Shown here piece by piece: positions 48,001-51,000 of a stretch of 64,000 bases of DNA. The DNA is from Escherichia coli. GTDB lineage: Bacteria > Pseudomonadota > Gammaproteobacteria > Enterobacterales > Enterobacteriaceae. A program made the position numbers. The DNA is taken from the NCBI RefSeq assembly GCF_030013595.1, contig NZ_CP122768.1, one strand, 5' to 3'. The number at the start of each line of letters is the position of its first letter. Position 1 is the stretch's first letter.

Positions 48001-51000
48001 GCAGAACTGATATAATATCTGACCGTCATTTCTCGCTCTTTCTTTTGTTCTGCTATTATTGACCGAAAGGAGACTGCCACGCATAATTTCTTCTGACCTT
48101 TCCATTCAAACGTGAAATCAATAAGTTCATCAGGGACATCGCAAACAATATGAAGACGGATTTCTTCTCTGCCGTGACTCTTTTCACTCATTGCGTAACT
48201 GTCATGCTCTGGATTATTTAATTCTTTCAGTGGGAATTTTTCCTCAAAGGCTTTATTTAGCCGACCCTGATTTCCTTTTACAGCGAATAAATAATCACCT
48301 CCCTGTTTTTGTATCTTCTCTGCAATATCTTTCTGGCAACCCATCGCATCAGTTGTGATGATTTTTCCTTTAATATCCAGCATGTTAAGAAGTTCAGGGA
48401 TAGCTGTAATTTCATTGGGTTTCTCATCCGTCCTGATCTGTCCGATGACCAGACTGTGCATTGTTGAGAACGCACTAATGACATGAATCGCTCCCTTGCG
48501 GCGACTCTTGTCATAAGGATGCCGGAGTGTTTTTCCATCAATTGCGATGACGTCTTTATCAGCTGAAGAATGGCAGTCACGCATCCAGTTAATAAAGCAC
48601 TCGTAAAATTTTGCAGGACTGATACAGGATACAACTCTGGCAATGGTATCGTTAACAGGAATACCATTTTCAAAATCACCATATTGCTTCAAAAAATCGA
48701 GATGTGTTTCCCCAAAATCCTCTATATCTTCCCAGCCTTCTGCACCAGAAATAACGGCATAAATAGTCAACAGTAGAATATCCGACAATTTATATTCCAC
48801 TTTCCAGGCTTGTCTGTAATCGGGGATAATAGAAATATGTTCCATCAATTTTTTAAGTTCCATTTTGTTCTCCTTAATTATGTAAGGAGTATTTGATCAT
48901 GTATACGCAATAAAAAACAGCTTTAGGTAATAAGGAATATATCAATTTTTAAACATAAAATGCGAATTGTCTAGTACAAAAAAGCAGCGTTACGTGATCT
49001 TTCCCTGGTTAATCATGGCTGAACACGATATTACGCCAGAAGTCACCATTTCCAAAACACAGCGCCGCTATAAAGTCGGCTATGTCAGAGCCCGCCACCA
49101 GGACCGCACAACCGGTATAGCCCGGTATTATTCACAACACCCCAGCCTGCACCTGAAGGGCGACTGGCTGAAAGAGGCCGGATTTGATACCGGACGGGGT
49201 GTCACGGTGAAGATTTCGGAGGGGTGCCTGACCATCATCGCTGACAGTGACGAGGTGCAGGAACTGCGGGAGGAACTTTATCAGGTTAAACAGGTGGTTA
49301 AGGGGATGCGGAACGGGATGTTTAGTATGCTGGACGAAAGCTAAATAATAAAAAAGCCGGGAAGATCTTATCTTTCCCGGCCATCTTGCCATACATTAAT
49401 TATTTATGAATATAATATAACTGAACATCATATTCATTATCACTTAAAACTATTAGTCGATCAGGAGATGTAAATGCTAATGAAAGATCATATGTTTCAT
49501 TTATCGAAAACAAACTCAATATGAAATTTGAAAAATTTTCGACATGAAGAGATATGCAAACATCTCCATTATAGAATATATTGCAAAGAATATCTTTTTT
49601 CACATTCAGTGTGCTTTCAACATCTCTCGCTAGATCATTAATATTTAAAGGTAAATTGAAAACTCTCCTTTCAATAATATTATCGGTTTTATTTATTGCC
49701 ATTAGCATTTCTCGATGCCACATGAAGTCATTCTTACGTAAGAATGATACATCAAAGGAAGTGACACCATTTAATTTAGAAGCATAATCTTTTGCTCTAA
49801 TTAAATTTAATTTATCTTCAAGGCTAATTTTCATAATATATATGATGATCCTTAGTTACAGGGTCATTGATCTACTGATATCTATCACTTTTGAAATCGT
49901 ATGTTCTAGGATCAGCGCCCGGTTTAGGTTGTCCTGCATGTGCGTGAGGGCCAGGAGCCCTAGGATCTGCCGTGTGCTCGACTACAACTTTCTTACGTCC
50001 GTAGGCATCCGTATATTCATAATATCGCCCATGAGACCCTAAATCTTCCGAATATTTATAATTTGTTTGTCCCCTTCTTCTAGGATCATTTCCAACTGTC
50101 CATTGCCTATTAGGTTGCTGTGAACGAGGTATGCCCGCAAGATCTTTTGCTTTATTTAGTGCCTGACGACGGTTTCTTAATTCACCACATTTCAGACCAA
50201 GCGGATCTATCCAGCTTGCTGGATTAGGCGCGTAAGCATACAGGTTCAGCCCGCCCGCCAGCCCTATCGGATCCGTTACCATGAACCGCCCGACATCCGG
50301 ATCATAGTACCTGTGCAGATTGTAGTGCAGCCCCGTTTCCCTGTCGAGGTACTGTCCCTGGTAGCGCAGGTTCTGCTCCACCCCGCCGTGGTCCTTCTCC
50401 TGTATCGTGTTACCCCAGACCTGATACCCCGTCTCCCACACGATTTTCCCGTCGCTGTCCGTCATCTCTTCCGGCGCGCCGTTCACATCCGTGTGAAAAT
50501 ACAGTATCCGGTTCGGGCCCTCTTTGCCCGCCTTATCCACCCGCGCCAGCGGTTCATAACTCCCCGGGTCCCTGTAGATGTACAGGCTGTCTGTTCCCTC
50601 CGGCCTGCTCTCCTGCGCCAGCCGCATTCCGTCCCATAAAAATTTTGTCCGGTTGTACGGTTTACCGTCAGGACTGATGTGCTGTTTTTCCGTCCGCCTC
50701 CCCAGCGCATCGTACACATACCGGTACGTCCCCCGCGCTGTCGTCACTTCCACCATCCGGTGTTCCGCATCATAACGGTAACTCTGCGTGCCGCTCCGCC
50801 CCTCCTTTTCCACCGCACGGCCAAATTCGTCGTAACGGTAGTGCACACCACGGTAAGACATCAGCCGGTTGAACGGCACCACGCTGTTTTCTGCCGTGGC
50901 CCTTTCCCCCGCGCGCCGCGCCAGCAGGTTTCCCGCCGCGTCGTACTGCCAGCTCGCCAGATACCCCTCATCCTCCGAGCGGCACGCCGTGATGCGCCCC

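What the first reader, a model, noticed from the sequence alone, without database searches (positions are those of the whole stretch)
48967..49344. SymE-like toxin homologue embedded between the Rhs immunity gene and the H-repeat transposase
The translation resembles SymE, the SOS-induced type I toxin whose 5' end is covered by an antisense sRNA in K-12. Here it is an orphan on the strand opposite the Rhs genes. A cis-antisense RNA over its start region would be expected if it is a real type I module.
Basis: partly seen in the sequence, partly recalled or inferred. Interest (0 to 1): 0.4.

Follow-up and report, generated by a model that had tools for sequence, protein, structure and literature searches.

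The report
IS-decapitated SymE-family gene beside Rhs
This is a real, already-annotated SymE-family gene at the far end of an E. coli Rhs toxin locus, but an ISAs1 (H-repeat) insertion sequence has cut off its promoter, ribosome-binding site and the SymR-like antisense RNA that intact relatives carry, so it is most likely a silenced remnant.

Summary
The ORF is real and belongs to the SymE family: Pfam SymE_toxin scores 76.9 bits against a cut-off of 29. RefSeq already annotates the identical protein as "SymE family type I addiction module toxin". The true start is ATG 49015 (109 aa), not TTG 48967.

It is a paralogue of K-12 SymE, not the orthologue (35% identity; NCBIfam equivalog 49 vs 132).

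Intact relatives have this layout: Xre-HTH gene, then a two-hairpin antisense sRNA over the 5'UTR and start codon, then the SymE-like ORF, then a terminator, placed tail-to-tail with an Rhs immunity gene. Evidence for the sRNA:
- Covariation: 10 of 15 terminator pairs carry compensatory changes.
- G·U asymmetry points to the antisense strand.
- It is homologous to SymR: Rfam symR E=4e-9, and my model finds K-12 SymR at its exact 5' end.

In the window only the sRNA promoter and 7 nt of 5'UTR survive. No SymR-like RNA is detectable, and there is no Shine-Dalgarno sequence or LexA box.

An Rfam isrA hit lies on the antisense strand. It reflects coding-sequence conservation, not a supported RNA structure.

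Verdict: an ordinary, known kind of gene, and a degenerate copy. The SymR homologue in this Rhs-linked subfamily and the repeated ISAs1 junctions are of modest side interest.

The parts
49015..49344 (+). SymE-family ORF, 109 aa (true gene; the stop TAA is 49342-49344)
   Evidence: Pfam SymE_toxin 76.9 bits. RefSeq CDS WP_064226675.1 in the near-identical genome. 407 homologues at E<1e-5. N-terminus conserved across genera.
48967..49014 (+).
   Evidence: ISAs1 homology ends at 49007. Alignment A1. No Shine-Dalgarno sequence before TTG 48967 (sequence).
49008..49014 (+). GTTAATC, the only surviving piece of the native 5'UTR. The native Shine-Dalgarno GAGG at -13..-10 is gone.
   Evidence: Comparison with native leaders ...CAAGCAACTAACAGAGGTAGTTAATCATG.
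47717..49007 (-). ISAs1-family insertion sequence (H-rpt/ISEc1 type), 1291 bp, with its transposase divergent from the SymE-like gene
   Evidence: Inverted repeats 47717-47741 / 48983-49007, 25 nt, 80% complementary. Transposase NF033564 400.9 bits. End shared with >5,300 genomes. No flanking direct repeat (TTACAATA vs GTTAATCA).
47727..48863 (-). ISAs1 transposase gene (ydcC), 378 aa, intact
49020..49055 (-). Retained promoter of the SymR-like antisense RNA: -35 TTGGAA (49055-49050), 16-nt spacer, -10 TAATAT (49033-49028), predicted start A at 49020 (ORF nt 6). It now points into the IS.
   Evidence: Same register as the K-12 SymR -10 TAGAAT and its mapped 5' end. Hexamers conserved in Citrobacter, Erwinia and Buttiauxella relatives, where the -10 toggles TAATAT/TAGAAT while the encoded residues change. 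The promoter assignment is a sequence inference.
48929..49020 (-). Position where the SymR-like sRNA body should be. Here it is IS sequence with no structure.
   Evidence: Fold gives -10.2 kcal/mol, z=+0.55, against native -39.2, z=-5.3. No symR hit and no R1 hit.
49086..49214 (-). Match to Rfam isrA (RF01385), which is the antisense of the conserved SymE-domain coding core (ORF nt 72-200)
   Evidence: 112.6 bits vs GA 51. Same ORF position in every homologue. The structure is not supported: 75.5% paired and no compensatory change.
49350..49381 (-). Intrinsic terminator for minus-strand (Rhs-immunity) transcription: hairpin 49356-49381 followed by the U-run 49355-49350. It abuts the SymE-like stop codon.
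   Evidence: Fold -18.9 kcal/mol with UUUUUUAUUAUUU tail on the minus strand. The same element is present in Salmonella locus L044.
49400..49834 (-). Candidate immunity gene of the Rhs HNH toxin (144 aa, no family match), convergent with the SymE-like gene
49872..51119 (-). C-terminal part of the Rhs protein, with RHS core and Tox-HNH-EHHH nuclease domain
   Evidence: Pfam. Relative to the closest genome, it is split from the upstream part by a stop at 51168-51170 and carries a frameshift at 49948.

Best explanation
The gene at 49015-49344 encodes a 109-aa SymE-family protein (AbrB/MazE-like DNA-binding family) of the subfamily that sits at the distal end of Rhs toxin/immunity cassettes.

In its intact form the module reads as follows. 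An Xre-type HTH gene comes first. About 78 nt of spacer follow, encoding on the opposite strand an ~80-nt SymR-homologous sRNA. That sRNA starts at ORF nt 6. Its first hairpin presents the anti-Shine-Dalgarno sequence in its loop, and its second hairpin is a terminator. The SymE-like ORF comes next, and a terminator then insulates it from the convergent Rhs-immunity transcript. The sRNA would block translation of the SymE-like mRNA as SymR does in K-12.

In this window an ISAs1/H-rpt element ends 7 nt upstream of the ATG. The event left no target duplication, so it was a rearrangement or adjacent deletion rather than a simple insertion. It removed the HTH gene, the sense promoter, the Shine-Dalgarno sequence and the whole sRNA body.

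What remains is an intact coding sequence with no recognisable means of expression, plus the sRNA promoter, which now fires towards the transposase gene. The copy is therefore most likely a silent, regulatorily decapitated remnant rather than a working toxin-antitoxin module.

Shown: family membership, IS boundary, loss of leader and sRNA, existence and strand of the conserved sRNA structure in relatives, and its homology to SymR. Inferred: silence of the window ORF, activity of the retained promoter, and toxicity of the protein.
For: Family:
- Pfam 76.9 bits.
- 35% identity to K-12 SymE.
- dN/dS about 0.41 within the subfamily.

IS boundary:
-.
- The left flank of the IS is unrelated to the native leader.

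Native architecture:
- HTH_3 gene upstream, 53 bits.
- RefSeq-annotated HTH + SymE pair in E. coli 200164.

sRNA in relatives:
- Two hairpins, with antisense MFE about -35 kcal/mol against about -24 for the sense strand.
- 98.2% of cells paired, 10 of 15 pairs of helix 2 with double-sided changes, 0 of 500 shuffles reaching the observed values.
- 81 G·U and 7 mismatches on the antisense strand, against 4 G·U and 84 mismatches on the sense strand.
- Rfam symR full-length hit at exactly the predicted site: 52.7 bits, E=3.9e-9.
- Model R1, built only from Rhs-linked loci, finds K-12 SymR from its mapped 5' end: 54.9 bits, E=1.4e-10.

Absence in the window:
-.
- No LexA box.
- Promoter-like sites in 48700-49500 do not exceed the shuffle expectation (5 found vs 2.3+/-1.7), and a hairpin at 48870-48889 lies between the + strand candidates and the ORF.
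Against: - The ORF is intact, and the same IS-ORF junction is kept in 82 complete genomes. This could mean the copy is still useful, or merely that the event is recent.
- Translation from a weak UGG at -8 to -10, or transcription reading out of the IS, cannot be excluded from sequence alone.
- Antisense transcripts have been detected over homologous genes: IsrA in Salmonella (PMC2330248), and possibly the Shigella Ssr1 transcript, whose Rfam model partly matches the antisense strand here (PMC4782007). A different, longer antisense RNA might therefore still operate here.
- Promoter assignments rest on consensus and on homology with K-12, not on data from this strain.
- The sRNA alignment has only 14 sequences. 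Many were retrieved with a pattern from the ORF start, so they are related (effective number 1.48).
Confidence: 0.65

Rival explanations
1. This is an intact type I toxin-antitoxin module. On this view a SymE-like toxin is repressed by a cis-antisense sRNA covering its start, and is SOS-inducible through LexA.
For: SymE-family membership. An antisense -10/-35 in the K-12 register is retained inside the ORF. Any minus-strand transcript from 49020 would still be perfectly complementary to whatever sense RNA crosses the start codon.
Against: - No SymR-like RNA is detectable.
- The region downstream of the antisense start is IS DNA without structure or terminator.
- The Shine-Dalgarno sequence and sense promoter are lost.
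- There is no CTG-N10-CAG within 48700-49120.
- Even native relatives have only a weak, non-conserved LexA-like site and carry an Xre gene instead.
Confidence: 0.05
2. The gene is still expressed, by transcription reading out of the IS or from an unrecognised promoter. A longer IsrA/Ssr1-type antisense transcript that starts inside or 3' of the ORF then controls it.
For: - Rfam isrA match at 112.6 bits on the antisense strand.
- IsrA is a 423-nt RNA detected in Salmonella. It is antisense to STM0294.1n and shows inverse expression (PMC2330248).
- Salmonella homologues sit in the same Rhs-orphan context.
- Ssr1 was detected next to an Rhs gene in Shigella.
- The ORF is intact.
Against: - The isrA model coincides with the conserved coding core in every homologue, and its structure shows no compensatory change.
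- No promoter-like site lies on the minus strand between 49214 and 49348.
- The minus-strand terminator at 49350-49381 should stop read-through from the immunity gene.
- The Ssr1 match is partial and far below threshold (101.5 vs 820), and Ssr1 did not reach its threshold in the two Shigella loci examined.
Confidence: 0.2
3. The sequence matters mainly as DNA, not as a gene. On this view the conserved SymE-like gene plus terminator is the distal homology arm or boundary of mobile Rhs C-terminal toxin/immunity cassettes, and ORF integrity here is incidental.
For: - Arrays of [Rhs fragment - immunity - SymE-like] repeats, with up to 9 copies in one locus. Many copies are 5'-truncated and fused directly to the next Rhs fragment.
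- 69 of 69 adjacent Rhs boundary motifs are convergent, at a median distance of 826 nt.
- Intact modules lie next to XerC-type integrase and primase genes.
Against: The subfamily shows purifying selection (dN/dS about 0.41) and a conserved, structured regulatory sRNA. These indicate a protein function in intact copies. No recombination junctions were mapped here.
Confidence: 0.1

Closest known systems
E. coli K-12 symE/symR (type I-style module; SymE is now described as a nucleoid-associated DNA-binding protein)
   Same: - Same Pfam family.
- Antisense -10 hexamer at ORF nt 14-19 and sRNA start at ORF nt 6, in the same register.
- Intact relatives of the window gene carry a two-hairpin sRNA that is reciprocally detectable with SymR models.
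   Different: - Only 35% protein identity, and below the NCBIfam equivalog cut-off.
- No LexA box.
- The native module has an Xre-HTH gene upstream.
- It lives at the end of Rhs cassettes rather than in the hsd/mcr region.
- In this window the sRNA body, leader and Shine-Dalgarno sequence are deleted.
cHTH-SymE pairs and Rhs/haemagglutinin-linked SymE genes described by Kawano, Aravind & Storz 2007 (PMC1891008, Fig. 7A)
   Same: The same gene neighbourhoods were already catalogued there: cHTH + SymE, a Prim-Hel gene, transposases, and RHS cell-surface complexes. That paper also predicted sRNA control where the nucleotides upstream of the start are conserved.
   Different: That paper expected either a transcription factor or an sRNA. 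Here the intact relatives have both. The window copy has neither.
Salmonella IsrA (Rfam RF01385), antisense to STM0294.1n
   Same: The minus strand 49086-49214 matches the family above threshold. Salmonella homologues lie among orphan Rhs cassettes in the same orientation. The minus-strand terminator after the immunity gene is shared.
   Different: - The Rfam model is just the antisense of the SymE coding core and has no covariation support.
- The Salmonella copy is replaced upstream of codon ~12 and lacks an ATG.
- No promoter for such an RNA is recognisable in the window.
Shigella flexneri Ssr1 (Rfam RF02627)
   Same: It was reported between an Rhs-family gene and a hypothetical gene (PMC4782007). 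The 3' ~270 nt of the model align to the antisense of the window ORF and terminator.
   Different: The match is partial (101.5 bits vs 820), with a 354-nt block of the model missing. It was not recovered at threshold in two Shigella SymE-like loci.
H-rpt / ISAs1-family elements of E. coli Rhs loci (ydcC at rhsE)
   Same: Same position next to yddH/nhoA as the K-12 rhsE H-rpt (the K-12 layout is from my own knowledge). It is 1291 bp with 25-nt inverted repeats and an ISAs1 transposase.
   Different: Here its end abuts a SymE-like start codon. Related loci show the same IS end at -55, -64 and -96, and an IRR scar at -29.

Membership tests
SymE family (Pfam PF08845) | Profile match above the curated gathering score | tested here: met
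   76.9 bits vs 29, covering profile positions 1-53 of 54.
SymE proper (orthologue of K-12 b4347; NCBIfam NF010128 equivalog) | Score at or above the equivalog cut-off | tested here: not met
   49.2 bits vs 132. 35% identity over 94 aa.
SymE family | AbrB/MazE-like swapped-hairpin fold | tested here: inconclusive
   AlphaFold2 monomer has mean pLDDT 61. Foldseek against PDB gives nothing at E<=0.001. A PDB sequence search gives nothing. The fold is an obligate dimer, so a monomer model is a poor test.
SymE family | Growth inhibition or nucleoid condensation on overexpression | not testable with these tools
   Needs an expression experiment.
symE/symR-type (type I) module | Cis-antisense sRNA covering the ribosome-binding site and start codon of the toxin mRNA | tested here: not met
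   In the window there is no Rfam symR hit at E<=10 in 47000-50500 and no hit with custom model R1 in 64 kb. The region is IS DNA with z=+0.55. In intact relatives the feature is met.
symE/symR-type (type I) module | Antisense promoter inside the first codons of the ORF | tested here: met
   TTGGAA-16-TAATAT, with predicted start at ORF nt 6, in the same register as K-12 TAGAAT and the mapped SymR 5' end. This is sequence evidence only; activity was not tested.
symE/symR-type (type I) module | LexA box / SOS control of the sense promoter | tested here: not met
   No CTG-N10-CAG in 48700-49120. The K-12 control scores 15/20 against the consensus. Native relatives score at best 10/20, and the site is not conserved.
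Rfam isrA (RF01385) | Covariance-model score above gathering | tested here: met
   112.6 bits vs 51, full length, minus strand 49086-49214.
Rfam isrA (RF01385) | Conserved secondary structure supported by compensatory changes | tested here: not met
   In 19 distinct homologues, 75.5% of cells are paired, no pair has a double-sided change, and variation breaks pairs.
Rfam isrA (RF01385) | An antisense transcript is actually made | not testable with these tools
   Shown only for Salmonella (PMC2330248).
ISAs1 family insertion sequence (H-rpt) | ISAs1 transposase, terminal inverted repeats, ~1.3 kb length | tested here: met
   NF033564 at 400.9 bits vs 70. Inverted repeats of 25 nt, 80% complementary, spanning 1291 bp.
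ISAs1 family insertion sequence (H-rpt) | Target-site duplication flanking a simple insertion | tested here: not met
   The flanks are TTACAATA and GTTAATCA, and the left flank is unrelated to the native SymE leader. This implies a rearrangement or adjacent deletion.
Rhs polymorphic-toxin cassette (context) | RHS repeats and core, C-terminal toxin domain, small downstream immunity ORF | tested here: met
   RHS_repeat, RHS and Tox-HNH-EHHH, with a 144-aa ORF downstream. VgrG and a DcrB-related gene lie upstream in the relative. In the window the Rhs gene carries a stop and a frameshift.

The most novel reading that the evidence does not exclude
Rhs-linked SymE-family modules may be doubly controlled (Xre repressor plus a SymR-homologous sRNA) end-modules of mobile Rhs toxin/immunity cassettes. 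Their 5' leader may be a preferred landing site for ISAs1/H-rpt elements, always oriented so that the constitutive sRNA promoter reads towards the transposase. That would explain the long-known H-rpt/Rhs association. The published 'intergenic' sRNA IsrA, and probably Ssr1, would then be antisense transcripts of such SymE-like genes.
Probability: 0.3. Interest if true: 0.5.

Novelty: new member of a known kind. Interest (0 to 1): 0.3.

Why it matters
For this window it mainly corrects an annotation-level expectation. The gene is a SymE-family paralogue that has lost its control region, so it should not be counted as a working type I toxin-antitoxin system.

More broadly, three points would be useful to people working on type I systems, Rhs cassette turnover and IS biology. 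None overturns current understanding.
- The Rhs-linked SymE subfamily carries a bona fide SymR homologue together with an Xre gene.
- In E. coli most copies are scarred by ISAs1 at the leader.
- At least one published sRNA (IsrA), and possibly a second (Ssr1), maps antisense to these genes.

Tried and rejected
- **Structure route.** The AlphaFold2 monomer was low-confidence (pLDDT 61). Foldseek against PDB and a PDB sequence search gave nothing usable.
- **PADLOC.** No defence-system model matches the SymE-like protein.
- **LexA box.** Absent in the window and unconvincing in relatives.
- **Rfam isrA as evidence for a structured antisense RNA.** Rejected after pair counting, and because the hit sits at the same ORF position in all homologues.
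- **Ssr1.** Only a partial sub-threshold match, and not found at threshold in two Shigella loci.
- **IsrA ends.** I tried to place the 5' and 3' ends of IsrA on a Salmonella locus. I could not do so without LT2 coordinates, and the genome-contig scan did not return Salmonella.
- **The hairpin in the HTH-SymE spacer as a sense-strand terminator.** Rejected: no U-tract follows it, and the sense strand has 84 mismatches against 4 G·U pairs.
- **The TTG 48967 start.** Rejected: it lies in IS DNA, has no Shine-Dalgarno sequence, and the extension is not conserved.
- **Literature.** The first literature search was wasted on word-start matching.
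Full report
**What is there.** The window is an E. coli chromosome segment. It runs nar genes, yddE, nhoA, yddH, ISAs1, the SymE-like gene, an immunity candidate, Rhs, a DcrB-like gene and VgrG. It is 99.9% identical to NZ_CM149870.1. The ORF listing gives a 125-aa ORF at 48967-49344 starting from TTG. RefSeq annotates the same protein (WP_064226675.1) as "SymE family type I addiction module toxin", starting at ATG 49015. The family has more than 400 close homologues across Enterobacterales, nearly all already named that way. The NCBIfam equivalog for SymE proper is not reached (49.2 vs 132), and identity to K-12 SymE is 35%. The gene is therefore a paralogue, not the orthologue.

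**Where the gene really starts, and what lies upstream.**
- A megablast of 48850-49420 shows that query positions 1-158 (window 48850-49007) are shared with more than 5,300 E. coli genomes under ISAs1 transposase annotations. Only 82 genomes share the whole stretch.
- The IS has 25-nt inverted repeats at 47717-47741 and 48983-49007, giving 1291 bp. It encodes an intact ISAs1 transposase.
- Alignment with relatives shows the native leader ...CACCACAAGCAACTAACAGAGGTAGTTAATC-ATG. In the window only GTTAATC (49008-49014) remains.
- The native Shine-Dalgarno sequence, the leader and everything upstream are gone.
- The two IS flanks are not a direct repeat, and the left flank is unrelated to the leader. 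The junction therefore arose by rearrangement or adjacent deletion, not by simple insertion.

**What the intact module looks like.**
- I retrieved loci by peptide patterns from the C-terminal half, by exact protein, and by a DNA pattern from the ORF start.
- In intact copies an HTH_3/Xre gene (53 bits) ends ~78 nt upstream of the SymE-like ATG. RefSeq annotates this pair in E. coli 200164, next to primase and XerC-type integrase genes and convergent with an Rhs orphan cassette.
- Across all fetched loci there are 103 SymE-like segments. Of these, 69 have an Rhs C-terminal boundary motif within 4 kb of their 3' end, and all 69 motifs are on the opposite strand, at a median distance of 826 nt.
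- Arrays of [Rhs fragment - immunity - SymE-like] occur, and many of their copies are 5'-truncated.
- Kawano, Aravind and Storz (2007) had already listed cHTH-SymE pairs, Prim-Hel genes and RHS neighbourhoods for this family. Later papers mention SymE genes in T6SS/Rhs loci in passing.

**The antisense RNA.** Read on the minus strand, the spacer plus the first six ORF bases fold into two hairpins. The anti-Shine-Dalgarno CCUC sits in the first loop, and the second hairpin is followed by GUUAUUUAU (-39.2 kcal/mol, z=-5.3). The evidence that this is a real antisense RNA is as follows.
- On a 14-sequence alignment, 98.2% of cells pair. Ten of 15 pairs in the second helix show double-sided changes, and no shuffle of 500 reaches any observed measure.
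- Wobble pairs decide the strand. The antisense strand has 81 G·U and 7 mismatches. The sense strand has 4 G·U and 84 mismatches.
- Rfam symR matches the predicted site full-length, starting at ORF nt 6. The score is 52.7 bits, just under the gathering score of 61, with E=3.9e-9 in that small search. The K-12 control gives 95.3 bits.
- A covariance model built only from the Rhs-linked loci finds K-12 SymR from its annotated first base, at 54.9 bits and E=1.4e-10.
- The promoter lies inside the ORF as TTGGAA-16-TAATAT. In Citrobacter and Buttiauxella the -10 is TAGAAT, as in K-12, while the encoded residues change. Third codon positions are invariant through codon 16 in the sample, but that sample is biased for codons 1-10.
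- Caveat: the sequences are related (effective number 1.48).

**What survives in the window.**
- The promoter hexamers (49055-49050 and 49033-49028) and the predicted start (49020) are intact.
- From +14 onward the transcript would be IS sequence, with no structure (z=+0.55).
- Neither Rfam at E<=10 over 47000-50500 nor my model over all 64 kb finds a SymR-like RNA.
- There is no CTG-N10-CAG in 48700-49120.
- Promoter-like matches in the area do not exceed the shuffle expectation.
- A good minus-strand intrinsic terminator (hairpin 49356-49381 plus U-run) stops the Rhs-immunity transcript right at the SymE-like stop codon. It is conserved in Salmonella.
- I conclude that the coding sequence is intact but regulatorily decapitated and probably silent. 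That last step is inference.

**The isrA and Ssr1 hits.**
- Rfam isrA matches the minus strand at 49086-49214 (112.6 bits vs 51).
- IsrA is a 423-nt Salmonella RNA shown to be antisense to STM0294.1n, with inverse expression. The authors gave that ORF no function.
- The Salmonella homologues of the window protein lie among orphan Rhs cassettes. This makes it very likely that STM0294.1n is a SymE-family gene.
- However, the Rfam model coincides with ORF nt 72-200 in every homologue, and its structure has no compensatory support. The hit therefore identifies the gene, not an RNA.
- The Ssr1 match is partial. Ssr1 was reported between an Rhs gene and a hypothetical gene in Shigella. I could not recover it at threshold in two Shigella loci.

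**IS junctions.**
- The same kind of IS end (...GATCTTTCC(C/A)TG) abuts this gene's leader at -7 (window), -55, -64 and -96. The transposase is always divergent, and there are at least three IS sequence variants.
- The common E. coli and Shigella form next to ybgA keeps a 28-nt remnant of the other IS end, fused at -29.
- Among 5,426 complete genomes, 82 have the window junction, 74 have an intact sRNA region with the IS at -96, roughly 110-120 have the scar form, and only 10 have the full HTH-sRNA-SymE arrangement.
- I did not resolve whether this reflects target preference or nested adjacent deletions.

**Comparison and verdict.**
- The gene works like, and is a member of, the SymE family.
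- It is not SymE proper, and this copy fails the defining feature of a type I module, because the antisense RNA is absent.
- SymE itself is now described as a nucleoid-condensing DNA-binding protein without RNase activity (RefSeq name). The label 'toxin' should therefore be used cautiously.
- The finding is a correct identification of a known, annotated kind of gene in a known kind of neighbourhood. The expected antisense partner was once there but has been removed by the H-repeat element.
- Interest is low to moderate. The side observations are worth a note: the SymR homologue plus Xre gene in the Rhs-linked subfamily, the ISAs1 junction series, and IsrA (possibly also Ssr1) as antisense transcripts of SymE-like genes.

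Noticed in passing
window 49872-54503 (minus strand); differences at 51170 and 49948: Relative to the closest RefSeq genome, where the Rhs CDS is a single 4647-nt gene, the window has A instead of G at 51170. This creates the stop that splits the Rhs gene into two ORFs. It also has an extra G at 49948 that shifts the frame inside the HNH toxin domain. The Rhs toxin gene here looks like a pseudogene, or carries sequence errors.
   Followed up: partly
window 41507: A one-base insertion relative to NZ_CM149870.1 near the narZ/narH boundary. The rest of the 18.5 kb differs from that genome by 21 substitutions and the 49948 insertion.
   Followed up: no
L004 3907-4012; L052 906-997; L059 30-121; L072 91-182; window 48983-49014: ISAs1/H-rpt ends abut the SymE-like leader at four different distances from the ATG (-96, -55, -64, -7). 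The orientation is always the same, and there are at least three IS sequence variants. This could be a target hot spot or a series of nested adjacent deletions.
   Followed up: partly
L003 3930-3980; L078/L079 ~2940-3000: The common E. coli and Shigella form next to ybgA carries a 28-nt remnant of the ISAs1 right inverted repeat (CAGGGCAAGATTACGAAAGCGCGCTCCC), fused to the SymE-like leader at -29. Even IS-free copies are therefore IS-scarred.
   Followed up: partly
L080 632-5819; L003 6084-8374: Intact HTH + SymE-like pairs lie beside a large DNA primase gene and a XerC-type tyrosine recombinase gene. This suggests that the module belongs to an integrative element adjoining or carrying orphan Rhs cassettes.
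   Followed up: no
L044 5960-6010 (Salmonella): The Salmonella SymE-like copy is replaced upstream of codon ~12 and is called from an ATA codon. The foreign sequence nevertheless recreates a TTGGAT-16-TAAGAT promoter-like arrangement on the antisense strand. About 150 nt upstream of the ORF start, on the opposite strand, lies an orphan Rhs C-terminal boundary.
   Followed up: no
L017 (Enterobacteriaceae MAG), 66-9543: Nine SymE-like segments lie on one strand within 9.5 kb, most of them 5'-truncated. The layout is consistent with serial displacement of Rhs toxin/immunity cassettes.
   Followed up: no
window 47087-47716: A 640-bp AT-rich, unannotated stretch between yddH and the IS, with several broken small ORFs on the minus strand. 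One 57-aa ORF has no Pfam match. K-12 has pptA in the corresponding position (from my own knowledge).
   Followed up: no
window 48870-48889: An inverted repeat CTCCTT-N8-AAGGAG overlaps the transposase Shine-Dalgarno sequence. On read-in transcripts it could sequester the ribosome-binding site, as in other IS elements.
   Followed up: no
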